Origin: an uncultured virus (IMG/VR IMGVR_UViG_3300033153_001312)
Taxonomy: Duplodnaviria > Heunggongvirae > Uroviricota > Caudoviricetes > Crassvirales
Virus record (IMG/VR): IMGVR_UViG_3300033153_001312
Reading direction: 5' to 3' (one strand)
Length of the DNA: 20,000 nt
Below are positions 3,103 through 16,954 of the stretch, one piece after another. A program made the translations under genes and the position numbers. The notes beneath the pieces were generated by a model that was not told the DNA's origin, did no database searches, and worked only from the letters and a program-made list of their open reading frames with translations. Within the stretch, counting starts at the first letter, position 1. Each line of letters begins with the position of its first letter.

Positions 3103-3358
3103 ATCCTTTTAATGTATTGTTTTTACTGTCCGATATATTTCCTTCTAATAAATCTCTTTCTTCTTCTATTTTTTTTATAATCTCAAAAGCATCCATTATA
3201 CATAGTTTTTTTGTAGCTGCAGCATTTTTTAATCTGTCAGCTGCTAATTCATCTTCTGCATCATATTTAATAATATCTTCTTTAGCTACTTTTACTAATT
3301 GTTTTACAGCCTTTTCTCCTGCTTCAATAATTTGTAGTTTTAATTCTTTATTTGTCAT
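3080..3358 (-). CDS. Putative terminase small subunit
   Basis: 92 aa, charged and helical-looking. Lies immediately upstream of terL and overlaps it by 23 nt. Call is mainly positional. Confidence 0.55.
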   Translation of the reverse strand: MTNKELKLQIIEAGEKAVKQLVKVAKEDIIKYDAEDELAADRLKNAAATKKLCIMDAFEIIKKIEEERDLLEGNISDSKNNTLKGFAESRSK

Positions 3359-3920
3359 TTAATATTACTGTTATATTATTAGTAAACATTCTGTATAATA
3401 TTTCATCTTCTACGGTAAACTCATATTCGCTTTCAGGTTCAAAAATTACTTCGTCACCTTCTTTTACACCTAACTCCAAGAGTTGGTCGTTAATATATTT
3501 AATAACACCTATCAACGGTTCGTATTTTGTGTGTTTATCTAAAAAAGTTTCTTTTTTCTTTACAGGTTTTACAAAACAATATTTACCATGTGCTTTCCAT
3601 TTACCGTTTTGTTTGTATAAAAAAAACTGATCTTCTTCAATAAAAAACATATTTTCTTTAAAAAAACTTTTACCACTTTTTGTTTTACCATACATATCAT
3701 TATAAAACTTAAATACATTATGATGAACTAATAGTGTATCTCCAACTTTTACATCACCTTTATAATGAAGTGGTAAAGATAAAACTTCAGCATAACGATT
3801 AGATACAGTAAAGTCTTCTTCAGAAACACTTGTTACAAACTCTAAACCTCCAATAGATTTTATATTATCATATCTTCGGTTATTGTAAGGCTTTACGATA
3901 AACGAATATAAAGCTCTCAT
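3348..3920 (-). CDS. GroES/Cpn10-like co-chaperonin, apparently two tandem domains
   Basis: Two GroES-like patterns: FIVKP...AEVLSLP...VKVGDTLLV and YCFVKPV...GVIKY...GVKEGDEVIF...EFTVEDEILYRM. Confidence 0.7.
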   Translation of the reverse strand: MRALYSFIVKPYNNRRYDNIKSIGGLEFVTSVSEEDFTVSNRYAEVLSLPLHYKGDVKVGDTLLVHHNVFKFYNDMYGKTKSGKSFFKENMFFIEEDQFFLYKQNGKWKAHGKYCFVKPVKKKETFLDKHTKYEPLIGVIKYINDQLLELGVKEGDEVIFEPESEYEFTVEDEILYRMFTNNITVILNDK

Positions 3921-4295: not shown

Positions 4296-7200
4296 TTATA
4301 CTTCTACCATTGGAATTTTATAAGTAACTCCATTTATAATTACAGTCCATGTGTGGTCTGGAGTAATAGTACCAGAATTTACAGTTCCTACATTATAAGA
4401 AGATGATCCTACAACAAATTGATTTGCGTCTGTTGCTGTTGCTCCTCTTCCTAATGCTATTGAATAGTTAAATTGTGCAGAAGCTTGTAATCCTATTGCA
4501 ATACCTCCAATCTTTCCATTATCTCCTGCTACTGATAATCGTCCTATTGCTATAGATTCTTGTCCCTCAGCCATAGCACTTGTACCTATTGCTATTGTAT
4601 TACCTTGTACTACACCTCCTGATACCCCACTTGCTTGATATCCTATTGCTATATTACCTACACCTGATCTTGTTATACCTACTGTTTGAGTCGTTGTTCC
4701 TTCTGCTTCATATCCTAATGCAATACCAAATGTTGATGTGTTGTATGTATCTATATTAGCTGATGAACTACCTATAGAAGCTCCATGACCAATTGCTATA
4801 TACCCTTTTCTTCCTCCTGCACCATATTGCATTGCAGACGAACCAACAACAACGTGTTCTCCACTGTCATATACTGACCTAAATGCTGTAGTGTTTACAA
4901 CACCCTGTCCTGCTGTTGTACCTATATAAATACCATTTCCAGAAGAATTGGTATTTGTAGTTTTTTGATATGCAGCAGCTGCAGCACCAATCGCAATATC
5001 ACCATTATTGTATCTTATTCTTGTATCATTAGATGTGTTTTGTCCCGTCATTGCTTGATACCCAATAGCTATTCTATTCATTTGGACTGAAGAAGTAGGA
5101 TCAGCAGTGTTGTTAATCATATTAGAACCTGCTAAGTATCCCATAGAAATATCCATTGATCCGTAAGCATTTGCAGCAGCTGTGTTACCAATAGCTATAC
5201 TGTTATCAACAACACGATTCGCACTTATACCATTTCCATATGTGTTATCTCCTATTGCTATGTTATTTGAACCCGTTTGTAAATCTTGTAGTACTCTGGC
5301 TCCAATAGCTATATTATCATCACCTGTAGTTATACCTTGTAAACCTGAATGACCAATTGCTATGTTGTTTTGTGCTCCTGTACCAAACCCTGACTGTGCG
5401 TAACCTAATCTTATATTAGGAAAGTTTTTAGTAGTAACAGAACCAATATCTCCTTGAACATAAATTTGATGACCGTTTCTTGGAACAGCATTAAAGTTTC
5501 CAAATCTTAAACCTGTTTCTGTAAAAGAACCTGTCCCATCTCCGTCAATTTCTGAAAGACTACTACTGTATGCAATCAAATCAGACTCAAAACGAGGAAG
5601 ATTACTTGTTTTTACACCTGATTGGGTACTTGAAGCTATTCCTGATAAACCTCTCCAAGAATTAATTCCTATAGATGTAGTAGCTACTACACTAACCACT
5701 TGACATCTACATAGTGTTGTTCCAAAATCAATAGTAAAGGTATCTGTTGCAGTCCAATTTCTTCCTGCAGAATATAAATCAACACCTGTCACACCACCAA
5801 CTCCGTCAACTGAAGTAACTTTAACGACTATACCTTGAGCGTTTGAATCAGCTGCAACTAATTTTGTAGTAGGATAGTATTGACCAGCTACATAACCCGT
5901 TCCTAATTGACCACCAACTACAGCAATAGTAGCTGCAGCTTTTAACCCAACAACTGTATCTCCACTTTCATTTAATACTACATTACCTGTTAAAGTATTT
6001 AATGAAGATATACCCGTTGTTGATGCTGGTATTCCCCAAGTATTATCAGCTCTTAAAAAGTGTGTTACTTTAGTATTATCATCTAATGCTGAAGTATCAG
6101 CATTTAACCCAACAGAAAGTTGATTTGATGATGGAGCAATTGATAGAGATATATATTTTAAATTTGCTGATGAACCAATGGTTACTTCTTTTTCTTTAAA
6201 AGTTAATGCGTTATTTGTTGCATCTATTAATCCAACTTGTGTTGATGGTACTGTTCCTATATCAAATGAAAAAGTACCTAATGCTGAAATTTCTATTTGA
6301 TTAGCACCGTTATCTTTTAATACAATATTTGACCCTTCTTTTAGTATAACAGAGTCTGTTGTTCCTGTTGATGGTATTAAATTAACTTTAGCTGAAGCAG
6401 CTGAAACTTCACTAACCACACCAGTAACATCATTACCTGGACCATTTACAGTAAATGTGTCTCCAGGTGAATATCCCGTTCCTGCAGCAACAACTGTAAT
6501 TTGATTAGTTCCAATAACACCACCAGTTGTAACTGTTCCAACTAATACAGTTAAATTCCCATCACCTCCACCTGTAACAACTGATGTAGGAAGTGTTGAT
6601 CCCGCTATATAACCTGTTCCTCCTGATGGGTTTGTCATTAATGTTACAGGACCAGTTTGAGAAGATGTTAAATCATATGTTGTGTTTGAACCAGCACTAC
6701 CATTTGCAGCTGCTGTAATTCTACCATATGCATCAACTGTAAGATTAGTTGCTGTATATGAACCTGCAGTAACACTTGTAGCTGGAAGTTCTATATCTAA
6801 AGTACCTGATGTTGTAATTGGACTCCCTCCTATTAAAAGAGTAGAGTTGGTGCTTGTTGCACCTACTGAAGTAACTGAACCTCCTCCTGAACTTGAATTT
6901 ATTGTAACCTCACCACTGTTTATACTTCTTACAAATTCTATATTAGTTCCTTGTTTAAATGTTACTTCACTACTTCGTGTTCCATCTGAATTTCTTAATG
7001 TGCTATCTCCTTTTACAGTATCTACTACTACAGTAGTTCCTGAACCCGTACCTCCTGATAAACCTGAGAATGACGTACCTGCTGAATAGTTTGTTCCTGG
7101 AGTAGTAATTGTAGCTGTTTGTGCTACTCCACCTGATGTATTTAAAGTTACAACCAAACCATTTGAACCTACAGCTACTCCTGTAGTAGTTGGGTCAGAG

Positions 7201-8975
7201 TATCCTGAACCTCCTTGACCAGATGCTATTGAGACTGTAACAGGTATACCTGTAGCAGCATTTGTAAAAGCTAAATCCCAATCAGCTCCTTGAGGTAATG
7301 AAAATTTACCTCTATCGTCATAATATCTATCGGATGCAACATTAAAAATTTGTATTATAGCTGTTACACCTCCTGATGAACCAGGCACTTCTACTGTATC
7401 ACCATTAGCATATCCCGAACCTCCCGATACCATCTCATAGTCTGTAGTATTTTGAAGTGAAGTGCTTAATACGTTTATTGTAAATCCTGAACCTGAACCT
7501 GTAACTGTACCACATACAACATTGTTTGTTGGTGTATAATTTGTACCATTTACAGATATATCTGAACCAATAGCAACTCCTGTTCCTATCGCTGTTGAAG
7601 TTCCCGTAAGACTTAAAGATGCAAGTATTGTAGGGTCAGCTGCTGTTCCTCCTGTTGTTGTTGCTATGTAATTTGAATTAATTCCTGTTACACTATCAAC
7701 TGTTCCGCTTCCACTAACAGTTGTCCATGTTGGTGTTAAAAATGGTCCCGCTGATGTTAACACTTGACCAGCTGAACCTGGTGTAGCACCTAAATATATT
7801 GGAGTATAACTTCCTGTTAAATATAAAGCTCCTGCATTTAGTGTTAATATACCCTCAGTTGAAGCTACTGTTAAGTCTCCATTACCAGTTAAAGTAATAT
7901 TAGCGTTTGCACCATTAGCTGTGTTACCACTATCTAAAACACTTTGTAAATCTTGATTTAATCCTGATATGGTACTCCAAATTGGAGTTTGTAAACTTCC
8001 TTGTGAAACTAAAAGTTGACCTAATGTACCTGGATTACCTTTTAATCTAAACTCAGTGTAATCTCCTTTTATATCTATAGCACCCCCATTAATATTTAAA
8101 AAACCTTGTGTTGTTGGTACAGTTATATCAGCATTTCCTACTATATTAACAGTTCCTGTAGATTGTAGAATTGTATTTTCATCAAAATCAGTTGTGCTTC
8201 CCGCATTTGTACCTACAAAACTAATACCAACTCCTGTTAATACATTATCTCCTGATGAGGTAGGTGTGCATACATCTTGAAGTGTTGGAGAGGTTAATGA
8301 AGGTGCTGATGACCATTGTACACCAGTTGCTGTAGACATAAGAAATTGTCCTGCAACACCTTTGCTTTGAGTACCAGGCGTCACACCATCTTCCACCCAT
8401 AATTCTGTTAATTGTTGCAGTTGTAGTTTATAACCTCCTGCCGATCCCGTTGGATCACCAATTAAAACATTGTTTCTAAAGTCAGCAATTCCCGCCCAAT
8501 TTAATGTTGTATTTACATCTCCCGATAATTGAGCTGCTACTGAACCTGGTTGTGTAATAGTAAAACTACCATCAGATAAAAATATATTTTGTGAAGAAAC
8601 TGTATTTCCATTACTAACAGCATCGTTCCAAGTTACCGTACCTCCTGAAGGAGTATTCCATTGTAAACCTGTACCCGTAGACATAAGAAACTGTCCATTT
8701 GTACCATGTGCTCCTTGAACCCCTGCAGAAATAACAGTAGGGAATACATCAACTGCTGTCAGTATTCCCGTACCTGTTAGTGTTATATTGTTAGATGCAG
8801 TGTTTCCTACACCAAGAACAGAGGCTAAGTCTTGTGCTGCACCTCCTCCTCCTACTATATCGCTAATTTTAAATGTTACGGTTTTGTTGTTATCGCTTAC
8901 ATCTGTTCCTATTAATAAATCAGTTGCTGCAGGAACAATAGTAGGATATACCGTAGTATTGAATATTTTAGCCAT
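4296..8975 (-). CDS. Long fibre/adhesin protein (1559 aa) with C-terminal YadA-head-like repeats
   Basis: G/S/T-rich. Contains GxxGQxLxSxG...W repeats, QDLxSVLxxGNTA repeats, GG(S/T)GY modules, the fibre repeat GSYTxxNLTVDAYGRITAA, many xIAIGxxA repeats (about 4400-5370), and ends in WTVIINGVTYKIP. Confidence 0.85.
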   Translation of the reverse strand: MAKIFNTTVYPTIVPAATDLLIGTDVSDNNKTVTFKISDIVGGGGAAQDLASVLGVGNTASNNITLTGTGILTAVDVFPTVISAGVQGAHGTNGQFLMSTGTGLQWNTPSGGTVTWNDAVSNGNTVSSQNIFLSDGSFTITQPGSVAAQLSGDVNTTLNWAGIADFRNNVLIGDPTGSAGGYKLQLQQLTELWVEDGVTPGTQSKGVAGQFLMSTATGVQWSSAPSLTSPTLQDVCTPTSSGDNVLTGVGISFVGTNAGSTTDFDENTILQSTGTVNIVGNADITVPTTQGFLNINGGAIDIKGDYTEFRLKGNPGTLGQLLVSQGSLQTPIWSTISGLNQDLQSVLDSGNTANGANANITLTGNGDLTVASTEGILTLNAGALYLTGSYTPIYLGATPGSAGQVLTSAGPFLTPTWTTVSGSGTVDSVTGINSNYIATTTGGTAADPTILASLSLTGTSTAIGTGVAIGSDISVNGTNYTPTNNVVCGTVTGSGSGFTINVLSTSLQNTTDYEMVSGGSGYANGDTVEVPGSSGGVTAIIQIFNVASDRYYDDRGKFSLPQGADWDLAFTNAATGIPVTVSIASGQGGSGYSDPTTTGVAVGSNGLVVTLNTSGGVAQTATITTPGTNYSAGTSFSGLSGGTGSGTTVVVDTVKGDSTLRNSDGTRSSEVTFKQGTNIEFVRSINSGEVTINSSSGGGSVTSVGATSTNSTLLIGGSPITTSGTLDIELPATSVTAGSYTATNLTVDAYGRITAAANGSAGSNTTYDLTSSQTGPVTLMTNPSGGTGYIAGSTLPTSVVTGGGDGNLTVLVGTVTTGGVIGTNQITVVAAGTGYSPGDTFTVNGPGNDVTGVVSEVSAASAKVNLIPSTGTTDSVILKEGSNIVLKDNGANQIEISALGTFSFDIGTVPSTQVGLIDATNNALTFKEKEVTIGSSANLKYISLSIAPSSNQLSVGLNADTSALDDNTKVTHFLRADNTWGIPASTTGISSLNTLTGNVVLNESGDTVVGLKAAATIAVVGGQLGTGYVAGQYYPTTKLVAADSNAQGIVVKVTSVDGVGGVTGVDLYSAGRNWTATDTFTIDFGTTLCRCQVVSVVATTSIGINSWRGLSGIASSTQSGVKTSNLPRFESDLIAYSSSLSEIDGDGTGSFTETGLRFGNFNAVPRNGHQIYVQGDIGSVTTKNFPNIRLGYAQSGFGTGAQNNIAIGHSGLQGITTGDDNIAIGARVLQDLQTGSNNIAIGDNTYGNGISANRVVDNSIAIGNTAAANAYGSMDISMGYLAGSNMINNTADPTSSVQMNRIAIGYQAMTGQNTSNDTRIRYNNGDIAIGAAAAAYQKTTNTNSSGNGIYIGTTAGQGVVNTTAFRSVYDSGEHVVVGSSAMQYGAGGRKGYIAIGHGASIGSSSANIDTYNTSTFGIALGYEAEGTTTQTVGITRSGVGNIAIGYQASGVSGGVVQGNTIAIGTSAMAEGQESIAIGRLSVAGDNGKIGGIAIGLQASAQFNYSIALGRGATATDANQFVVGSSSYNVGTVNSGTITPDHTWTVIINGVTYKIPMVEV

Positions 8976-8987
8976 ATAGTTTCATTT

Positions 8988-9257
8988 TTATTTGGTTATC
9001 TTTAAATCAGGAGTTTCTTCTTGGTTTTCAGTTACTATACCTGTCTCTAAATTAATGGTAGCATTTTTTCCATACTTTTCCATTAATGGTCCTTCTTCTT
9101 CTGAAAAAGATTTTCTAATTTCTGCAACTTTTTCCATTAGTGCGTTTTGTTGTAATAAAGTATCGCCTAATTGCATTTTTATATTGTTATAATCTTTTTG
9201 AAGATTTTGTAATTTGTTTAATTCTTCTGTAGTTAATTTTACTTCTTTTTTTGCCAT
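8988..9257 (-). CDS. Coiled-coil phage protein (89 aa), possible fibre chaperone
   Basis: Heptad-like N-terminal helix followed by LMEKYG..INLETG. Lies directly upstream of the long fibre gene, behind a candidate promoter. Confidence 0.6.
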   Translation of the reverse strand: MAKKEVKLTTEELNKLQNLQKDYNNIKMQLGDTLLQQNALMEKVAEIRKSFSEEEGPLMEKYGKNATINLETGIVTENQEETPDLKITK

Positions 9258-9330: not shown

Positions 9331-10202
9331 TTATGGAGTATTGGTACTCCAAGTTGGTGTATTGACTCCTGATCCAGTAAATGAATTGGTAGAACTATCT
9401 GCGTAAGAAGTCCCTGTTCCTTCATTAAATCTCCACCATGCTATTAGGTTAGCTGACTGATTATAATTACCTGAATCTGTACTTAAATCTATTGGAGATC
9501 CTGAATTATAAATAGCTGATATATTAGTAGCGTTAAGTGCTGAAGAAAATACTGCCATATTGTTTAACTCGCCATCAAAAAAGTTAACATTACTATTTCT
9601 TCTCCACACTCCTAAACTTGAATTACCATTGTATGCTAAAGTAACTGTTTGAAGTCCTGACTTAACATAAGTGCTTGGATTTACTACAGAACCATTTTTA
9701 TAAATACGCCATTCGTCTCTATCTTGTGTAGAACCCATGCTGCCTGATGGTATAACAATAGCTAAGTGGAATTAGCTGTTCTTATAGTATTTCTGTTATT
9801 ACTACCTGCACCTGCAAAACCTTGATTTAATCCCATAACATGAAATACTAAAGCTCCATTTCCGTTAACCACCATTTTTAATCCATAGTAATTATTAGTA
9901 CAACAATTTCCTAAATCATAAATAAAATCTCCACCACCCGTACCAAGAGTGTCTATGTATACCCAAGCTGTTAAAGTCAGTCCACTACTATTAATAGAAG
10001 CTTGAGATGGATTTAATACCGATGAAGTTTGATTTCCTAAATCAATATATTGAGAACTACCATTTAACTCTACAGAATAATCTACTGTAAAACTTGCAGG
10101 AGTTTCAATAGTATTAATTTTTTCTATACTTGTTAAATTAACCGAATCAACCTTATTGATAGCGGTTGTGGCTATAGTATTTAATTTAGATATAGTAGCC
10201 AT
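9331..10202 (-). pseudogene. LamG/concanavalin A-like lectin-domain virion protein, split by a frameshift into ORFs 9762-10202 and 9331-9738
   Basis: N-half: YSVELNGSSQYIDLG...LTLTAWVY. C-half in the -1 frame: HLAIV...WRIYKNG...FDGELNNMAVFSSAL...LIAWWRFNEGTGT. Together these make one LamG-like domain. The frame switch is at about 9762-9771. Confidence 0.75.
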
Positions 10203-10203
10203 A

Positions 10204-13086
10204 TTATGATAGCTCTATAAATGTATTGTCAGGATGGAAAAATATTTGACCGTTAGTTGCGTCTAACTGTGTACCTACAATTCTTACAAACTTACCTGTT
10301 CCAGATGGCGGCTCATGTGTTACTACTCCCGAGCTTGCACTTTCTATATATAAAGGTGATCCCCCAGATGAACCTGTTGAAACATAACTTAAAGTATAAA
10401 TACCTCTGGTTAACATACCAGCTGAAACTGAAGTTCCAAGTGCTATAGCTAATAATCCTGCTGTTTTACTTTGAGAATTTGCTTGAGCAGCAGCCCATTC
10501 AGCATCAGGTGTAGTTAGAACATATAGTTTTCCTTGAGTTAAGGTTCCTGATGCAGATCCAAAATAAACTACTTCACCTTGATAAGAGTAATCTGTGTTG
10601 TCAGTTAAATCTAATTGAGTATTAGCATTCCAAGTTCCACTTGTAACTCCTCCACCAGTGGCTGAAGATACTTTTGTTCCTGTTATCTGTCCTTGGTTTA
10701 GGTTTACTATTGGTGTTGTTGAAGCTGTACCCGAAATAAAAAGTGGAAATCCTGCCGCACCACCACTATTCGGGTTGGCTGCACTAACTGAAGTTACCGT
10801 ACCAGTATTTGTTGTATACCCTGCTCCGTTTGTTAATTGATTGTTATTAGTAATAGTATTTGTTATGGTAATACTTCCTGAAGAAGTTATCGGTGAGCCA
10901 GACACACTTATTCCTGTACCTGCTGTTATTCCTACCGAAGTAACCGTACCTTGAGGTGCAAGAGCTGTTATTTCTTGTATTTCATATGTTCGTGTTTCAC
11001 CTGATGCTGACGAATCTCTACCTACCATGATAAAATCGTTTTCATCTATTGACCCTGTACCTCCTGGACAGTCAGCAATTAATCCATTTGAACCATAGTC
11101 TACGGATACAGTTCCTGTACTTGTTATTGTTCCACCAGTTAGTCCACTTCCTGTAGCTACTGAAGTTACTCCTGCTGGCGGTATAGTTGGGAAAGTAGCT
11201 AAACCTCCGTCTCCTCTTACATATTGAGATGAAGTTCCTGCACCTGCTATTGTAAATGTCCCCGTTGTTGTTATAGGTGACCCCGAAACTGTAAAGGCCG
11301 ATGGAACAGCTAAGCCAACACTAACAACTGTACCTGATGCCTGTGAATTTATAGTTATATTATTTCCTGAACGATGTGTTGTTATATTTGAACCTCCAAT
11401 TATATCTATAGCATCACCATTAGCTATTGTTGCCGCACCACCAGTGTCAGCCTCAATAGTGAAATTAGTCATTTTATTATTGAAAGTTGTAAAATTTCCT
11501 GATGTTAAATATCCGTCAACCGAAGTAGTTGCCGCAGCCATAGAAATAGCAGGAGTTGTTCCTCCTGAAGAAACTACAGGTGCAGTACCCGTAACACTTG
11601 TAACTGTTCCTGTATTTGTGGTGTAACCCGCACCGTTTGTTATCTGATTGTTATTAATGTTAAAAGTTACGTTAGAAAGGCCAAGTCTTGAAAGGGTTAC
11701 TACTCCTGATGATATACCACCACCAGTAACATAATTATTTGTGTCAGTTGGAATAGATGGGAATGCTACTAAATCACCCTCACCATTTACATATTGAGAT
11801 GATGTTCCTTGCCACACTCCTGTCATAGTACCAGACCCTGTAACTGAATTTGATGCTACGTTTAACGAGTTACCATCAGTTTTAAAGTTTACACTTGTTA
11901 CTCCTACTGATGGCATTGTTACAGTTTTTGTATTTACATCTGTTACGTGACCAGTAGCATTAGTTGTCATTGAGTCTATAACAGCAAATGTACCTGCTGA
12001 ACCAGGAGATGCAGAACTTGTTGTATCAGTTCTTGTTGTAGCATCGTGATTTACTGTTAAGGTTCTTGATGACTCAGATGTTGTTATATAAGTTCCTCCT
12101 GCAACATCCATTGTTTGTCCGTCTGATACAGATGAACTACCTGAATCACCTTGAATTGTCCATGAAGACATTGATCCGCCTCCCCCCGTTGCAGCTATTG
12201 TTATTGTTCCACTACTATTTGTTGTTGTTATACCTGAACCAGCGGCTATTGTTATAGTTCCGTTATTTGATATTGTTGTACTACCACCTGAAGTTCCTGC
12301 AACTGCTATTCCATCAAAAGGTTTAGAATTTGTTATTGTTACGGTTCTTGAGCTTTCAGCAGTAGTAATACCTGTTCCTCCTGCAATATCTACTGTATTT
12401 CCACTTGATACTGTTGAGCTTCCTGAATCACCTTGTATGGTAAAATTAGACATTTTTCCATTAAATGTTGACCAATCTGATGATGATAAAGCACCTCTAT
12501 TAGCTGATGAAGCAGTAGGAACATTTAAAGTTATTACAGGGGTAGAGGTAGAGTTTGCTACTGAACTGGATAAGTCGGTTCCAGATGTTCCTAATGTTAA
12601 TGCCGCAACGCTTGTTACTGTTCCTGATCCTGCACCAATATCAGAAAGTACCTCAGCTCCTGTTCTGTACTTAACTACTCCTCCGTCACTAACTAAAAAC
12701 TTATCAGTATCACTGGTAGCATTATTTATAGTGCTTATGTCTAATTGACCAGTTATGTCAACTCCACTTGATGTTGTTAATAATCTATTTGTAACCCCAT
12801 TGTTAACGTGGTTAAGTGCAACTGCACCACCAGTAAAAGAAGCTAAAAGTCCATTAGCTGCGTGACCAGGAGATATTTCTTGACCTATGATCAATCCACC
12901 AGTATTGATACTCATAAGTTGATACTGATTCTCAAAATCCCAGTTACCTGAACCTGAATTACAACTCGCATGAGCTGTCCACTTAATGTACGGAAATCCT
13001 GTATATGAACCGCTACCATAGCAGACGTTACCAAATTGAACCTTTACATCATCGCCATAGATATTGTCAGATAAAAAAAGTGCCAT
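10204..13086 (-). CDS. Fibre protein (960 aa)
   Basis: G/S/T-rich with GTVTSV repeats, (W/F)TIxGDSG...VDIAGGTGITT modules and a duplicated NNNQxTNGAGYTTNTGTVTSV. C-terminal globular domain (GKLYVL...GLLAIALG...FVRIVG...FFHPDNTFIEL). Confidence 0.8.
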   Translation of the reverse strand: MALFLSDNIYGDDVKVQFGNVCYGSGSYTGFPYIKWTAHASCNSGSGNWDFENQYQLMSINTGGLIIGQEISPGHAANGLLASFTGGAVALNHVNNGVTNRLLTTSSGVDITGQLDISTINNATSDTDKFLVSDGGVVKYRTGAEVLSDIGAGSGTVTSVAALTLGTSGTDLSSSVANSTSTPVITLNVPTASSANRGALSSSDWSTFNGKMSNFTIQGDSGSSTVSSGNTVDIAGGTGITTAESSRTVTITNSKPFDGIAVAGTSGGSTTISNNGTITIAAGSGITTTNSSGTITIAATGGGGSMSSWTIQGDSGSSSVSDGQTMDVAGGTYITTSESSRTLTVNHDATTRTDTTSSASPGSAGTFAVIDSMTTNATGHVTDVNTKTVTMPSVGVTSVNFKTDGNSLNVASNSVTGSGTMTGVWQGTSSQYVNGEGDLVAFPSIPTDTNNYVTGGGISSGVVTLSRLGLSNVTFNINNNQITNGAGYTTNTGTVTSVTGTAPVVSSGGTTPAISMAAATTSVDGYLTSGNFTTFNNKMTNFTIEADTGGAATIANGDAIDIIGGSNITTHRSGNNITINSQASGTVVSVGLAVPSAFTVSGSPITTTGTFTIAGAGTSSQYVRGDGGLATFPTIPPAGVTSVATGSGLTGGTITSTGTVSVDYGSNGLIADCPGGTGSIDENDFIMVGRDSSASGETRTYEIQEITALAPQGTVTSVGITAGTGISVSGSPITSSGSITITNTITNNNQLTNGAGYTTNTGTVTSVSAANPNSGGAAGFPLFISGTASTTPIVNLNQGQITGTKVSSATGGGVTSGTWNANTQLDLTDNTDYSYQGEVVYFGSASGTLTQGKLYVLTTPDAEWAAAQANSQSKTAGLLAIALGTSVSAGMLTRGIYTLSYVSTGSSGGSPLYIESASSGVVTHEPPSGTGKFVRIVGTQLDATNGQIFFHPDNTFIELS

Positions 13087-14813
13087 AAAAATAGATTTTT
13101 ACAAATATACGAATTTAAATAAAAGCGTTTTGCTAATATTTAAACTCGTATATGTAATTTTTACTAAAGTATTTCAGTAATTAGTACTCTTGCCTCATTA
13201 GTATCTAAAGGTTCTACTGTACTAAGAGTAATTTGTGATGTAGAAGTTCTATCAACTTGAACACTTATATTGTCATAAGGAGATTCGTTACGGTAAACTT
13301 GCACCATAACATCTCTTGTTCCTAAATTATGAGTAATTGCATAAGAAGTTGCTGAATTATTACCTATGTTAGCTACAAAATTATGATTATCACCAATACA
13401 CGTTGTTACAGCAGAACAGAAATCTGTAATTTGTGATGCTGGAATTGCAATTGTATTTTCAGACATTGCAGTAACAAATCCTTTTGCATCAACTGTTGCA
13501 TTTAATGATTTAGTTACACCACCGTATGATGCGGCTGATACTCCTGAATTATCTATTGTTACAAATCCATTTGCTGTTACACCAAAGTTTGCCGAATCAA
13601 ATCCTGCGACCCCTTTATTAGTAGCACCGTCAGTTGCTCCTGCTCCTGCAATGTTTTCATCAGCTATTACAATAGTATAATCTGATTTAGAAGGAGAAGA
13701 ACTTGCTGCAATATTACTATTAGCAAATATAAAGTCTCCAGGTTCAAGTTGTGTACTAAAGAAAGCATTACCTGCTACACTTACTACATAGAAGTCACCT
13801 TGAGTTAACGCTACGTTAGATGCTCCCGATAAAGCAGGTGAGTTAGTGTTGGCATTATAAGCTCCTTGAAAAGCTCCAACTCCTGCAACTTGTGATAATA
13901 CATATCCTTTAGATGCTGCATCTGTTGATGCAGAAGGTGTTGCTGGTACAGTTAATTGACCTGCAACAGCTGATTGACCTGTGCTTGTTACATTTAATGC
14001 TCCTGTTGATTCTATTCCTCCACTCCCTACATTTAAACTTGACTGAATAGTTACATTACTTGGTAAACCAATAGTAATATCTCCACCATTTCCTGTTGAT
14101 GGTGTAGTAATTTCTATTTCAGAAGTTGTTCCTGAGAATTTAGCTGTCGTTGTAGAACCACCTGAAGAACCAACTAAAGATAATGTGGATTCGTTTGATG
14201 ACACCGCACCAACACTTAATGCATAATTAGCATCTGTATTAGTAGATGTGTTAGTTATTGTTACTGATCCTGTAGAAGCACTTACGCTAATACCTGTACC
14301 GCCTGTTAACGCAGTTACACCCGTGTTGGATATAGTAACATTTCCAGTTGCTCCACTTACTCCGATACCTGTTCCTGCAACATTACTTAAAACTCCTGAG
14401 TTAGTAATTGTTAAGTCATCGGTTGCTCCTACTGCAGTTGTTATACCTGAACCTCCAATAAAAGTTGCTGTATTACCAGATGCTATTGTTTGTGCAGATC
14501 CCGAATCTCCATCTAAAGTCCAACCTGCGTATACAGTTGGAGAAGTTGGCATAGTAACTGTTTTAACATTAATAGCTGTTAAGTGACCAGTTGCATTTGT
14601 GGATACACTATCAACTACGCTAAAAGTTCCTGCTGACCCAGGAGATGATGAACTTGTTGTGTCACTTCTTGATGTTGAATCGTGAGTAAGAGTTACAGTT
14701 CTTGTTCCTCCAACTGCACCTGTAATATATGTACCACCAACTATATCTACTGTTTGTCCATTTGTTACTGATTGATCAGTTCCCGATGTTGATCCAATCT
14801 TCCAAGAAGACAT
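11911..14813 (-). repeat. Paralogous block of about 88 aa shared by the 960-aa gene (about 11911-12171) and the 881-aa gene (about 14547-14813)
   Basis: MSSW...GQT.D..GGTYIT...HD.T.R.DTTSS.SPGSAGTF.V.DS..TNATGH.T..N.KTVTMP occurs in both proteins. Confidence 0.9.
13101..13113 (-). promoter_or_regulatory. Bacteroidota -7 element (TATATTTG)
   Basis: Minus strand TTCGTATATTTGT (core 13102-13109), in the intergenic gap 15 nt upstream of the ATG at 13086. Confidence 0.7.
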
Positions 14814-15809
14814 TGAACCTGAAGAACCACTGGATGCTGCAGTAATACGTCCTTGTTGGTCAACCGTAATACTTGCTAAGGTATATGAACCTGGTGTTAC
14901 AGCTGTGTCATCAAGAGTAATAGTTAAATCATCAGTTGCACTTGCAGCTGTTGTTAAACCAGTACCACCAACAAATGTTGCAGTGTTTCCATTAGTTATA
15001 CTTTGTGAACCACTGTCTCCAGCTAAAGTCCAAGAATCCATAGAACCTGTTCCACCTGTATAAGCAATAGTAACCGCACCTGTAGCACCTGATACACTAA
15101 TATTTGACCCCGCAACTGCAGAAGTTACCCCCGTGTTTGTTAAAGTCATTCCTGTTGCAGTTGTAGCTGAAGAAATTCCCGTTCCTCCCGCTATATCTAC
15201 TGTAGTTCCGTCAGTAACCGTTAAGTTTGTTCCCGAATCACCTTGAAGTGTCCACGAAGTATATCCTCCTGGAATAGATGCCCAAACATTATCACCTCTT
15301 AAGAACGTAGAACTACTTGGAGTACCAGTTGCAGATAAATCTATAGTACCCATAGTTACAGCACCAGTTGCTGCTGAGTTAGCTGTTCCTGCCGAAACAA
15401 ATGTTCCGTTTGCATTAGTAAATGAAGTTACACCTAATGTTGCTGTACCACTTGATGCTGCAGTAATAATACCTTGAGCATTTACTGTTATACTTGCATG
15501 AGTATAAGAAGTTGCAGTTACTCCAGAATTTGGCATATTAACTGATATCGTTCCACTACTTGTTATAGGTGAACTACCAATTGTCAAGTAATTACTTGAA
15601 ACACCTACCGAAGTTACAGAACCACCTGTACTTAATTCTTCCCAAGAATTTGATCCTTTGTGTAAATAAAGCTCATTTGTATCTGTTTTATATATTAACT
15701 GACCTTCTCCTGATAAACTTGAAGGAAGTGTACCTGTTAAGTTTTGTACCTTAAAGTTTGTTAACTGAGTATTATTTAAGGATACGTCTTGTAAAAAATT
15801 AATTGCCAT
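13164..15809 (-). CDS. Fibre protein (881 aa)
   Basis: N-terminus MAINFL...EGQLIYKTD. Contains SYTxASITVxxQGxITAASSG repeats, four WxxxG(D/S)-type modules and a TDAASKGYV neck-like motif. C-terminal THNLGTRDVMVQVY domain. Confidence 0.8.
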   Translation of the reverse strand: MAINFLQDVSLNNTQLTNFKVQNLTGTLPSSLSGEGQLIYKTDTNELYLHKGSNSWEELSTGGSVTSVGVSSNYLTIGSSPITSSGTISVNMPNSGVTATSYTHASITVNAQGIITAASSGTATLGVTSFTNANGTFVSAGTANSAATGAVTMGTIDLSATGTPSSSTFLRGDNVWASIPGGYTSWTLQGDSGTNLTVTDGTTVDIAGGTGISSATTATGMTLTNTGVTSAVAGSNISVSGATGAVTIAYTGGTGSMDSWTLAGDSGSQSITNGNTATFVGGTGLTTAASATDDLTITLDDTAVTPGSYTLASITVDQQGRITAASSGSSGSMSSWKIGSTSGTDQSVTNGQTVDIVGGTYITGAVGGTRTVTLTHDSTSRSDTTSSSSPGSAGTFSVVDSVSTNATGHLTAINVKTVTMPTSPTVYAGWTLDGDSGSAQTIASGNTATFIGGSGITTAVGATDDLTITNSGVLSNVAGTGIGVSGATGNVTISNTGVTALTGGTGISVSASTGSVTITNTSTNTDANYALSVGAVSSNESTLSLVGSSGGSTTTAKFSGTTSEIEITTPSTGNGGDITIGLPSNVTIQSSLNVGSGGIESTGALNVTSTGQSAVAGQLTVPATPSASTDAASKGYVLSQVAGVGAFQGAYNANTNSPALSGASNVALTQGDFYVVSVAGNAFFSTQLEPGDFIFANSNIAASSSPSKSDYTIVIADENIAGAGATDGATNKGVAGFDSANFGVTANGFVTIDNSGVSAASYGGVTKSLNATVDAKGFVTAMSENTIAIPASQITDFCSAVTTCIGDNHNFVANIGNNSATSYAITHNLGTRDVMVQVYRNESPYDNISVQVDRTSTSQITLSTVEPLDTNEARVLITEIL

Positions 15810-15829
15810 GTCGTTTCTGTTTTTTTATA

Positions 15830-16222
15830 TTAAAATTTATAGGTTAAACTTAATTTAAGTTCACCCTCACTGTCTTCGGATTCCATATCCATTAAATATG
15901 ATGGTTCAATGTATAAATTATTCCATACATTTAATGCATAACCTACTCCTAAAGAAATTTCTTCTTCTTCAGTCATTAGTCCGTATGCATATAAATGTTC
16001 ACCAAAAGAATATCTTGCTACTAAATTATAATCATCCCCATTCATCATTATACCTGCACTTATTTTATCCATAGAATACATTACTCCTATGTTGTCTGTT
16101 AAATTATCTAAACTTATTTCTTCACCTTCAGCTGGTGAACTTACCATACTTGTTACCATAAATTGTGCTGAAGCTACTGATGTAAATAAACTTAATAATA
16201 CTACTAATAATATATTTTTCAT
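15830..16222 (-). CDS. Secreted small outer-membrane beta-barrel-like protein
   Basis: Sec signal MKNILLVVLLSLFTSVASA|Q, alternating amphipathic strands (ISLGVGYAL, LYIEPSY), and a C-terminal beta-signal-like LKLSLTYKF ending in Phe. Confidence 0.7.
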   Translation of the reverse strand: MKNILLVVLLSLFTSVASAQFMVTSMVSSPAEGEEISLDNLTDNIGVMYSMDKISAGIMMNGDDYNLVARYSFGEHLYAYGLMTEEEEISLGVGYALNVWNNLYIEPSYLMDMESEDSEGELKLSLTYKF

Positions 16223-16234
16223 TTTTTTGTTTTT

Positions 16235-16954
16235 TTAGTTTAAGTATGCTTTTCCATTAGTTGGATCAGCAAATGTTATTGTTACTTGATTCAAAGAATC
16301 ATATTGTACATCACCGTAAACGGTTATATTAGCGTTATTGACTACACTTACTGATGGGTATTTATTTAATCCATGATTTACCACCCAAGGGTTTGCATTT
16401 GTTGCTTGAGTGAACACATAATTTTTATCACCAGCAGTTTGTCCATACGTCAGCAAAGATATAAAATAATCTTTGTTGTTTATTAAGCTACCTGACCCTA
16501 CTAAAGAGGTAAGTCCAATATCATAAAAAGTAGGTTCGGCACTGTCTTGACTTACGCTTGTAAAGGTAAATAACCCAAAACTTGATGGATCATCACATTG
16601 AGAAATTAACACAGAAGAGTTTAATAAAGGTACTGAATAATAAGAAGATACGTCTACTGAAGAGTTTAACGTAAATTGACTTAACATAAAAGTAGTAAGA
16701 CTTGTAAAATTAGGATTACCTGCGTCTGATGTTGCAAAAGAGATAGAACCGTTATTTCTTGTTTCTCCTGTTTTCCAATTTTGATATCTATACCTTAATG
16801 CATTTACCTCTATTTTGTTAAAGGTATTTAGAAATATCGCAACATCATTAGCTGTAAAGTTTTTTGTTGCATCAGCATTTGCAGCATCTGTCCCAATCCA
16901 TTTGTCTGCACCCAGAATTACACTTTGTATTGGATACGATGCTATTTTTGCCAT
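16235..16954 (-). CDS. Virion structural/fibre adaptor protein (239 aa)
   Basis: N-terminus resembles that of the 1559-aa fibre (MAKI..YP..D..IGTD..T..F). C-terminal WVVNHGLNKYPSVSVV...VTITF...GKAYLN domain resembles the 881-aa C-terminus. Confidence 0.65.
   Translation of the reverse strand: MAKIASYPIQSVILGADKWIGTDAANADATKNFTANDVAIFLNTFNKIEVNALRYRYQNWKTGETRNNGSISFATSDAGNPNFTSLTTFMLSQFTLNSSVDVSSYYSVPLLNSSVLISQCDDPSSFGLFTFTSVSQDSAEPTFYDIGLTSLVGSGSLINNKDYFISLLTYGQTAGDKNYVFTQATNANPWVVNHGLNKYPSVSVVNNANITVYGDVQYDSLNQVTITFADPTNGKAYLN

What the first reader, a model, noticed from the sequence alone, without database searches (positions are those of the whole stretch)
9331..16954. Possible daisy-chained, extensible multi-gene fibre with matched C-terminal sockets and N-terminal plugs
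Seen: the 239-aa protein ends in an NHGL..PSVSVV domain and the next fibre starts MAINFL. The 881-aa protein ends in a related THNLG..DVMVQV domain and the next fibre starts MALFL. The 960-aa protein ends in a different globular domain, and the next gene starts with a triple I.K(L/V/I)(N/D) repeat before a lectin-like domain. Inference: each C-terminal domain binds the N-terminal peptide of the next gene product, giving anchor > shaft > shaft > lectin tip in gene order. Fibre length and tip could then change by adding or swapping genes. I know of no characterised system of exactly this form.
Basis: inference. Interest (0 to 1): 0.72.

Follow-up and report, generated by a model that had tools for sequence, protein, structure and literature searches.

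The report
Phage fibre genes with matching ends
A short-tailed phage of Flavobacterium-like bacteria encodes a small anchor protein and two long fibres whose matching end pieces recur in the same gene order in many unrelated phages, which suggests, but does not prove, that the fibres clip onto one another.

Summary
The motifs are real, with three corrections. A 130-aa signal-peptide gene lies between the 239-aa and 881-aa genes. The lectin gene after the 960-aa fibre is split here by a 25-bp deletion and is intact (298 aa) in a 99.85%-identical record. The window's own MALFL start is only a degenerate copy of the usual peptide.

The two C-terminal domains are homologous (hhalign 94%, E 1e-7). 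The 239-aa protein carries this phage family's virion-anchor N-terminus; 881 and 960 do not.

The gene order recurs. 34 of 35 unique anchor-type proteins are followed within two genes by a fibre ending in the second domain type. In 8 of 10 clusters of that second domain, the next or next-but-one gene starts with the same kind of peptide. Thermus phage YS40 and Mycobacterium phage Myrna show the same three-gene order. AR9, Chidiebere and Mvi-JY20 stop after two genes.

Binding was not shown. The fold is a generic beta-sandwich, and one solved relative is a capsid decoration protein. Serial docking is my best reading (about 0.45). Branched docking on the anchor protein, or no docking at all, remain open.

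This is closest to branched receptor-binding systems with docking peptides, and to the T4 long tail fibre. I rate it a new variant of a known kind.

The parts
16235..16954 (-). 239-aa adaptor with three parts: a family-type virion-anchor N-terminus, a middle beta-barrel (residues about 51-170), and a C-terminal beta-sandwich
   Evidence: ORF. Anchor HMM E 1.6e-29. AlphaFold2 model, mean pLDDT 77.9. The C-terminus matches PHROG families of unknown function at E 1e-15.
16238..16450 (-). HNL-A domain (residues about 169-239), the proposed first socket
   Evidence: HMM and hhalign results. Invariant H194, L196, V202, Y218, F228, G234 and A236 in 20 sequences.
15830..16222 (-). 130-aa signal-peptide protein lying between the adaptor and the first fibre. 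It ends in an aromatic residue and is probably an outer-membrane-type protein, not a fibre part.
   Evidence: PorP_SprF, E 0.0071, below the cut-off. Present in the close clade only; absent in L019-L030, L042 and L043.
13164..15809 (-). 881-aa first fibre. It starts with a conserved N-terminal peptide, has no anchor motif, and ends in the HNL-B domain.
   Evidence: It is conserved along its whole length in 18 relatives, with 0.48-0.85 identity per 40-residue block.
13167..13388 (-). HNL-B domain (residues about 808-881), the proposed second socket
   Evidence: hhalign to HNL-A, 94.2%. The core around H-N-L-G-T-R-D-V-M-V is invariant or nearly so in 27 sequences. AlphaFold2 model, pLDDT 85.0.
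15789..15809 (-). N-terminal heptapeptide of the 881-aa fibre (MAINFLQ), the proposed plug
10204..13086 (-). 960-aa second fibre. It has a degenerate N-terminal peptide (MALFLSD), a variable body, and a conserved C-terminal domain.
10207..10689 (-). C-terminal domain of the 960-aa fibre (residues about 800-960), of a different kind from HNL
   Evidence: It is the most conserved part of second fibres, 0.47-0.72 identity. No Pfam family matches. The protein atlas gives a lead to small viral proteins, one cluster carrying Phage_cement_2 in 14% of members.
9331..10202 (-). Laminin_G_3 lectin-type gene. It is split here into 146-aa (9762-10202) and 135-aa (9331-9738) ORFs by a 25-bp deletion at 9768/9769.
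10107..10193 (-). Triple 11-residue repeat at the N-terminus of the lectin protein
8988..9257 (-). 89-aa, probably coiled-coil protein (judged by eye). Look-alikes of 81-84 aa close the fibre module in relatives.
4296..8975 (-). 1559-aa further fibre. By eye it has an anchor-like N-terminus, but the profile match is not significant. Its C-terminal part carries YadA-head-like repeats. It probably attaches on its own.
   Evidence: E 0.16. It sits where relatives have their single anchor-bearing fibre.

Best explanation
This is the fibre module of a podovirus related to Flavobacterium and Cellulophaga phages.

The 239-aa protein is an adaptor. Its N-terminus fixes it to the virion, and its C-terminal beta-sandwich of about 65 aa (HNL-A) serves as a dock. 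The 881-aa fibre has no virion anchor. It hangs on the adaptor by its conserved N-terminal peptide and the residues that follow, and it ends in a homologous beta-sandwich (HNL-B). That second dock holds the N-terminus of the 960-aa fibre, so the three products form one extended fibre in gene order.

The lectin-type protein may then sit on the conserved C-terminal domain of the 960-aa fibre. Its three N-terminal repeats could each contact one chain of a trimer. The 1559-aa fibre attaches separately.

What is shown and what is inferred:
- Shown: the homology of the two domains, the presence or absence of the anchor motif, the recurrent gene order, and protein-level conservation of the peptide.
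- Inferred: every contact, the serial rather than branched order, the trimeric state, and the lectin link.
For: 1. HNL-A and HNL-B are homologous (94.2%, E 1.1e-7).

2. An anchor profile built from 20 adaptor N-termini hits the 239-aa protein (E 1.6e-29). It also hits the lone or paired fibres of related cultured and uncultured phages: MW202828.1 648 aa at 1.4e-12, and elemo 398 aa and 157 aa at 8.7e-14 and 5e-13. It hits 0 B-ending fibres and 0 ORFs of 400 aa or more in the fetched loci.

3. Of 35 unique A-ending proteins with at least two ORFs downstream, 17 have a B-ending fibre next and 17 next-but-one. The single exception is a fibre cut off by the end of the locus.

4. All five distant groups examined show an A-ending gene directly followed by a B-ending gene: AR9, YS40, Myrna, Chidiebere and Mvi-JY20. 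In YS40 and Myrna a third gene starts like the second.

5. After B-ending genes, 20 of 40 unique next-gene N-termini score above the 95th percentile of 333 background ORFs, using a matrix trained only on first-fibre N-termini. The four top background scores are themselves first fibres whose B domain is cut off or split away, or next-but-one genes.

6. In 8 of 10 B-domain clusters (65% identity or more), the next or next-but-one gene has such a start.

7. The peptide is kept by synonymous codons (AGA/CGA, ATT/ATA/ATC, TTA/CTT/TTG), and the upstream DNA of the two genes is unrelated. The same peptide heads unrelated fibre bodies.

8. The module that follows the peptide in second fibres occurs in 63 unique ORFs elsewhere. 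In 56 of these it is internal with an upstream ORF present, and none of those 56 upstream ORFs ends in HNL. In 3 it begins within 6 residues of the start, and all 3 have an HNL-ending gene upstream.

9. One fibre of at least 2081 aa carries an HNL domain in line at residues 202-257, i-E 4.9e-8.

10. Where two or three peptide-headed fibres occur together, the B-ending ones always come first.
Against: - No contact was observed.
- In the clade nearest the window, the B domain stays 73-89% identical while the start of the next fibre varies widely, and several starts lack the peptide. The window's own 960-aa start scores below background.
- B-ending proteins are last in the row in AR9, Chidiebere, Mvi-JY20, L031 and L040, so the domain must also work without a partner.
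- The first and second fibres of one genome carry nearly the same heptapeptide (N/N, R/R, Q/Q at position 4). That fits a shared docking site as well as it fits two sockets.
- Structural neighbours are all at Z 6.7 or less and are mixed. They include C-terminal caps of tailspikes (Pam1, Sf6, phi297), N-terminal particle-binding domains (Carin-1, Kp7, LME-1), and CBA120 TSP4-N.
- A profile of the B domain matches the C-terminus of a solved 'capsid decoration protein' (9nx3_A, E 1.1e-5).
- The loci are related to one another, so the counts are not independent events.
Confidence: 0.45

Rival explanations
1. Branched, not serial. Both the 881-aa and 960-aa fibres dock by their similar N-terminal peptides on the adaptor (HNL-A or its middle domain), or on one common tail site, as two receptor-binding proteins share one adaptor in K1-5-type phages. 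HNL-B would then be an ordinary C-terminal cap of the first fibre.
For: - The heptapeptides of the two fibres within one genome are near-identical.
- The HNL-B fold resembles the C-terminal caps of tailspikes.
- B-ending proteins can be last in the row.
- Adaptor-based branching with peptides as short as 7 residues is established (PMC6872550, passages read).
Against: - It does not explain why HNL-B is homologous to the adaptor's own C-terminal domain.
- It does not explain why B-ending fibres always precede the fibre that lacks the domain.
- It does not explain why L034/L155 has three HNL-ending genes in a row before the last fibre.
- Residues 7-12 differ consistently between first and second fibres, so two distinct sockets are possible.
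Confidence: 0.25
2. No docking between fibres. The HNL domains are exposed adhesion or decoration modules of the Ig-like kind. The N-terminal peptides bind the capsid or tail directly. The recurring gene order is inherited synteny plus tandem paralogy.
For: - The solved relative is named a capsid decoration protein.
- Myrna- and Gordonia-type homologues are annotated as head decoration and lie beside head genes.
- 881 and 960 share internal repeats at 46% identity, so they are partly paralogous.
- The fold is generic.
Against: - Similarity between the first and second fibres at the N-terminus stops after about 7 residues, and the fibre bodies are often unrelated. That is not what simple duplication gives.
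- The adaptor has no long shaft and no evident receptor domain of its own.
- The order A-ender then B-ender holds in phages of Thermus, Bacillus, actinobacteria, cyanobacteria and Flavobacteriia.
- The first fibre, including HNL-B, is conserved rather than variable, which is unlike a host-specific tip.
Confidence: 0.2

Closest known systems
Anchor-branch receptor-binding protein systems (K1-5/SP6 adaptor gp37; G7C gp66 with gp63.1; CBA120 TSP1-4; Klebsiella KP32/KP34 groups)
   Same: A first protein carries the conserved virion anchor plus a small docking domain. Further receptor-binding proteins lack the anchor and start with a short conserved peptide, which can be as short as 7 residues. Some first proteins are cut down to a bare adaptor. 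(PMC6872550, passages read; PMC13352976, abstract only.)
   Different: In those systems the docking domain is T4gp10-like and sits near the N-terminus, giving side branches. Here the domain is at the extreme C-terminus, and it recurs at the end of a fibre of about 880 aa, which would give end-to-end extension. Homology to T4gp10-like domains was not established (Z 4.8-5.4 to CBA120 TSP4-N).
T4/T2 long tail fibre (gp34-gp35-gp36-gp37, with gp38 adhesin in T2); recalled, not from a call
   Same: Several gene products join in series, with gene order matching assembly order, and a small separate tip protein is encoded after the distal fibre.
   Different: T4 is a myovirus with a baseplate. There was no sequence match to those families in PHROGs or Pfam. 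The T4 joints are not a repeated homologous socket with a repeated peptide.
Chain-like fibres of podophages A1002, GP4 and VP1
   Same: A podovirus fibre built from more than one gene product.
   Different: Those are many small dimers strung on a rope protein by beta-sheet augmentation (PMC13730344, passages read). They are not long fibres joined end to end.
Capsid decoration protein of PDB entry 9nx3 (chain A, 242 aa)
   Same: Its C-terminal residues 172-240 match the HNL-B profile (E 1.1e-5).
   Different: Only that domain matches. Its place on the capsid and its partners could not be examined, and no paper naming the entry was found.

Membership tests
Anchor-branch receptor-binding protein system | The first protein carries the N-terminal virion anchor conserved in the phage group | tested here: met
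   The anchor HMM hits the 239-aa protein at E 1.6e-29, and the fibres of MW202828.1 and elemo phages at 1e-12 to 1e-13.
Anchor-branch receptor-binding protein system | Further fibres lack the anchor and begin with a short conserved peptide | tested here: met
   0 B-ending fibres and 0 ORFs of 400 aa or more hit the anchor HMM. The peptide recurs and is kept by synonymous codons. The window's own 960-aa copy is degenerate.
Anchor-branch receptor-binding protein system | The docking domain is homologous to T4 gp10 domains 2/3 | tested here: inconclusive
   VIA-align to CBA120 TSP4-N: Z 5.4, rmsd 1.8, 54 residues aligned; and Z 4.8. These lie among many unrelated beta-sandwiches. There is no Pfam or PDB sequence match to such domains.
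Anchor-branch receptor-binding protein system | The peptide physically binds the docking domain | not testable with these tools
   Needs pull-down or a structure.
T4-type long tail fibre | Sequence homology to gp34-gp37 | tested here: not met
   No such family appears among the PHROGs or Pfam hits of the 239-, 881-, 960- or 1559-aa proteins.
T4-type long tail fibre | Tandem fibre genes whose order equals the order in the fibre | tested here: inconclusive
   Tandem order is present and conserved. The order within the fibre is unknown.
Laminin_G_3 (Pfam PF13385) | Score above the curated cut-off of 27.6 bits | tested here: met
   The intact 298-aa protein of G001 scores 57.9 bits, E 1.7e-15. The window's two halves score 24.1 and 22.2 bits, each below the cut-off.
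Capsid decoration protein as in PDB 9nx3 | Similarity over the whole protein | tested here: not met
   Only profile positions 48-118 (the HNL-B domain) match chain residues 172-240. Myrna and Chidiebere homologues do not find the chain by phmmer.

The most novel reading that the evidence does not exclude
The HNL beta-sandwich and the N-terminal peptide of the next gene form a transferable connector pair, undescribed as far as my searches reach. The pair lets phages build fibres end to end from separate genes, and lengthen or re-tip them by inserting a gene. It would be shared by podoviruses of Flavobacteriia and by myoviruses of Thermus, Mycobacterium, Gordonia, Bacillus and Microcystis. A monomeric lectin could cap the trimeric end through three repeated pegs.
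Probability: 0.3. Interest if true: 0.75.

Novelty: new variant of a known kind. Interest (0 to 1): 0.55.

Why it matters
If the domain-peptide pair is a real joint, it would explain how many uncultured marine phages attach fibres that have no recognisable anchor. It would give annotators a rule for reading fibre modules, since the domain has no Pfam family and only unknown-function PHROGs. It would also add an end-to-end joint to the side-branch joints now used to re-target phages. If it is not a joint, the result is still a widespread conserved domain pair with a fixed gene order that needs another explanation.

Tried and rejected
- **Complex prediction**. I submitted the 881 C-terminal 122 aa in 3 copies with the 960 N-terminal 120 aa in 3 copies, using my own alignments of 27 and 14 rows. 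The verdict was 'no answer': runs scored 0.32, 0.38 and 0.75, and a control with chain 1 replaced scored 0.47. I take nothing from it either way.
- **Pairwise BLASTP** of 239 against 881, and 239 against 1559, found nothing.
- **megablast** of the whole window against cultured phages found no match.
- **phmmer** of the three proteins against PDB sequences found no match.
- **Foldseek** of both models against the PDB found nothing at E 0.001 or better. A second look by VIA-align at Foldseek's best 1000 chains did not bring up 9nx3.
- **Pfam** at E up to 10 on the isolated domains gave only sub-threshold noise.
- **The first 'plug' HMM** was dominated by residues 10-45 and did not capture the shared heptapeptide, so I replaced it with an 8-residue matrix.
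- **A regex locator** for the second-fibre module failed on 65 of 80 loci and was replaced by phmmer.
- **Parallel changes in A and B domains** were looked for in the one lineage where both peptides have Q at position 4. There was too little data.
- **Promoter and terminator scans** of the region were at chance level.
- **Searching papers for '9NX3'** gave only unrelated hits.
- **The 'chain-like fibres' of A1002, GP4 and VP1** were considered and set aside as a different architecture.
- **Not used:** Genome contigs and metagenome-contig scans, the search for homologous proteins, the search of protein representatives, and the read-mapping tools.


Full report
**What the window is.** All long ORFs lie on the minus strand. 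PHROGs identifies a large terminase (E 1e-174), a portal, a GroES-like protein, an amidase and a holin. The terminase is 73% identical to that of an uncultured 'Podoviridae sp.' (MW202828.1) and 45% identical to Flavobacterium phages vB_FspP_elemo. Cellulophaga, Tenacibaculum and Maribacter phages follow. The window is the reverse complement of the first 20 kb of a 37.9-kb viral record, G001, at 99.85% identity. The rest of G001 encodes head and other virion proteins of that phage group.

In transcription order the finding's region holds:
- holin;
- a 239-aa protein;
- a 130-aa protein with a signal peptide;
- an 881-aa fibre;
- a 960-aa fibre;
- a lectin-type gene;
- an 89-aa protein;
- a 1559-aa fibre, followed by the GroES-like gene and the terminase.

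**Checking the observation.** Three points need correcting.
1. The 130-aa ORF (15830-16222) sits between the 239-aa and 881-aa genes.
2. The 'next gene' after the 960-aa fibre is broken here. A 25-bp deletion at 9768/9769 relative to G001 splits one 298-aa Laminin_G_3 protein into 146-aa and 135-aa ORFs. The intact protein scores 57.9 bits against a cut-off of 27.6. The halves score 24.1 and 22.2 bits.
3. The likeness of MAINFL and MALFL within this window is slight (see the section on order after the second domain).

The relatedness of the two C-terminal domains is real but distant. BLASTP finds nothing. Profiles built from each domain's own close relatives align with 94.2% probability, E 1.1e-7, over 57 columns. 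Iterated HMMs started from either domain end on the same 107 ORFs. I call them HNL-A (adaptor type) and HNL-B (fibre type). Neither has a Pfam family, and the PHROGs they match have no known function.

**Who carries a virion anchor.** In MW202828.1 a single 648-aa fibre lies between the endolysin and the GroES-like gene. In elemo phages two proteins of 157 and 398 aa lie there. Their N-termini resemble that of the 239-aa protein. A profile built from 20 adaptor N-termini, with the window left out, gives:
- the 239-aa protein at E 1.6e-29;
- the three relatives at 1e-12 to 1e-13;
- no B-ending fibre, and no ORF of 400 aa or more, in the fetched loci;
- the 1559-aa protein only at E 0.16, so its anchor-like look is by eye.

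The 239-aa protein is therefore a short anchor-bearing protein. Its model has a disordered or low-confidence N-terminus, a middle beta-barrel, and the C-terminal beta-sandwich (pLDDT 77.9). The 881- and 960-aa fibres have no family anchor.

**Gene order after the adaptor.** Scans of viral contigs used the 881 C-terminus, its N-terminus and a B-domain alignment. They gave 35, 79 and 56 loci, many from the same contigs. ORFs were called with a simple ATG-only caller and de-duplicated by sequence. Of 35 unique A-ending proteins with at least two ORFs downstream:
- 17 are followed directly by a B-ending fibre;
- 17 are followed by one after a single intervening gene;
- the remaining case is a fibre cut off by the end of the locus.

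The intervening gene is the signal-peptide protein, which is present only in the clades nearest the window.

The only matches of the 881-aa protein in cultured phages are to its last 70 residues or so. There are 25 records in five groups, and I opened one record from each group. In AR9, YS40, Myrna, Chidiebere and Mvi-JY20 the B-ending protein (262-302 aa) is directly preceded by a protein ending in an A-type domain. That assignment is by eye on the printed C-termini. It is clear for YS40 and Mvi-JY20 and weaker for AR9.

**Gene order after the second domain.** A matrix was trained only on 15 unique first-fibre N-terminal octamers. It was applied to the ORF after each B-ending gene: 96 cases, 42 unique pairs, and 40 scored after two with X were dropped.
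- 20 of 40 exceed the 95th percentile of 333 background ORFs, and 6 exceed the 99th.
- The four best background ORFs are themselves first fibres whose B domain is cut off or split away, or the next-but-one genes of L036-L039.

Grouped by B-domain similarity (65% or more, 10 clusters), 8 clusters have a peptide-headed gene next or next-but-one. L040 has none, and L156-L158 have a different kind of start. L034/L155 carries three HNL-ending genes in a row before a last fibre. In YS40 and Myrna a third gene starts like the second. In AR9, Chidiebere and Mvi-JY20 none does.

Against the idea, in the clade nearest the window the B domain stays 73-89% identical while the next fibre's first residues vary greatly, and several starts lack the peptide. 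The window's own 960-aa start scores -6.8.

**Is the peptide selected as protein?** The two fibre genes of one genome share the first six or seven residues. They use different synonymous codons and have unrelated upstream DNA. After the peptide, the second fibres fall into several unrelated families. Position 4 of the peptide matches between the two fibres of a genome (N/N, R/R, Q/Q, R/K). That can mean a shared site, or sockets that evolve together.

**A split-fibre hint.** The module that follows the peptide in many second fibres is common elsewhere: 310 relatives were found, 80 loci kept, and 63 unique ORFs analysed.
- In 56 ORFs it lies 39-864 residues inside a longer fibre, and the upstream gene does not end in HNL.
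- In 4 more ORFs it is internal, and no upstream ORF lay in the locus.
- In the 3 ORFs where it begins within six residues of the start, the upstream gene ends in HNL-B. Those 3 come from related phages.

One fibre of at least 2081 aa carries an HNL domain in line at residues 202-257. Both facts fit a domain that sits inside the line of a fibre, but they do not prove it.

**Conservation pattern.** The first fibre is conserved along its whole length in 18 relatives (0.48-0.85 per 40-residue block). This is unlike a host-specific tip. The second fibre is variable except for its last 160-300 residues or so (0.45-0.72). All 16 second fibres with that C-terminal domain in the closer clades are followed by the lectin-type gene, counting the window's split copy and one truncated copy. 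Eight with a more distant version of the domain are followed by other genes. The lectin protein is itself conserved, and its triple repeat pattern is kept in 15 of 15 sequences. This third link therefore rests on synteny within one clade.

**What the fold says.** The B-domain model is good (pLDDT 85.0). Its neighbours are all at Z 6.0 or less and are mixed. They include:
- a neuraminidase C-terminal domain;
- C-terminal domains of tailspikes (Pam1, Sf6, phi297, K64-1 S2-4);
- N-terminal particle-binding domains (Carin-1 Dpo31 D1, which attaches that spike to the tail according to PMC13317679, passages read; also Kp7 and LME-1);
- CBA120 TSP4-N.

The A domain gives the same mix. The fold is a common small beta-sandwich and does not decide function. 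By sequence profile, the B domain matches the C-terminus of a solved 242-aa 'capsid decoration protein' (9nx3_A, E 1.1e-5). I found no paper for that entry.

**Reading.** The safest statement is that this is a modular fibre cluster with three elements:
- a short anchor-bearing adaptor;
- two anchor-less fibres headed by a conserved peptide;
- a pair of homologous terminal beta-sandwiches arranged in a fixed grammar that recurs far beyond this phage group.

The most economical mechanism is docking of each peptide-headed fibre on the HNL domain encoded just before it. I give the adaptor-to-first-fibre step about 0.65-0.7 and the full serial chain about 0.45. Branching of both fibres from the adaptor (0.25) and no inter-fibre docking (0.2) remain open.

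**Comparison with the known.** Anchor-plus-branching systems, with docking peptides as short as seven residues and with first proteins reduced to bare adaptors, are described for Klebsiella, E. coli and Salmonella phages (PMC6872550, passages read; PMC13352976, abstract only). Serial multi-gene fibres are known from T4 (recalled). The particular feature here is a repeated homologous socket at the extreme C-terminus of a long fibre, and its wide spread. Earlier notes of this scan describe plug-and-socket ideas in other phages with other joints. They are unchecked leads and share no sequence with this one.

**Limits.**
- The loci come from related phages and from overlapping contigs.
- ORF calling was crude (ATG starts only).
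- Type A or B labels for the distant cultured phages were made by eye.
- The Bacteroidetes-type promoter motif upstream of the second fibre genes is recognised from memory only.

Noticed in passing
window 9768/9769; L002:9799-10695: A 25-bp deletion relative to the near-identical record G001 splits the Laminin_G_3 gene into 146-aa and 135-aa ORFs. It could be a natural knock-out variant or an assembly difference. Five single-base differences lie elsewhere in the 20 kb.
   Followed up: partly
window 15830-16222 (-): A 130-aa protein with a signal peptide and a terminal aromatic residue lies between the adaptor and the first fibre. It has a weak PorP/SprF match (E 0.007). It is present only in the closest clades, so it is possibly a host-membrane protein carried by the phage.
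   Followed up: partly
window 4296-8975 (-): A 1559-aa fibre with YadA-head-like repeats near its C-terminus (Pfam E 1.3e-4, below the cut-off). It sits where relatives have their single anchor-bearing fibre.
   Followed up: partly
window 13087-13163 (-) and the same place in L017, L042-L053: The spacer before the second fibre gene carries a conserved stretch that looks like a Bacteroidetes -7 promoter element (TAnnTTTG, recalled from memory). It is seen in 8 of 8 printed loci of the closer clades.
   Followed up: no
L010 and L016 (B domain and next gene): In these two relatives the variable loop of the B domain holds a cysteine, and the next fibre's first 13 residues hold two cysteines. This may be a hint of a matched pair.
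   Followed up: no
L154, ORF of 197 aa between the B-ending fibre and the next peptide-headed fibre: By eye this is an HNH-endonuclease-like protein inserted between two fibre genes.
   Followed up: no
L201:903-7145: A fibre of at least 2081 aa has an HNL-type domain in line at residues 202-257 (i-E 4.9e-8). It is a natural fused form.
   Followed up: partly
L018-L027, gene after the second fibre: A 187-189-aa protein that by eye looks like a methyltransferase follows the second fibre, where the window's clade has the lectin gene.
   Followed up: no
window 3348-3920 (-): A 190-aa GroES-like protein (PHROG co-chaperonin GroES, E 7e-25) lies just upstream of the terminase. Relatives also carry GroEL.
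   Followed up: no
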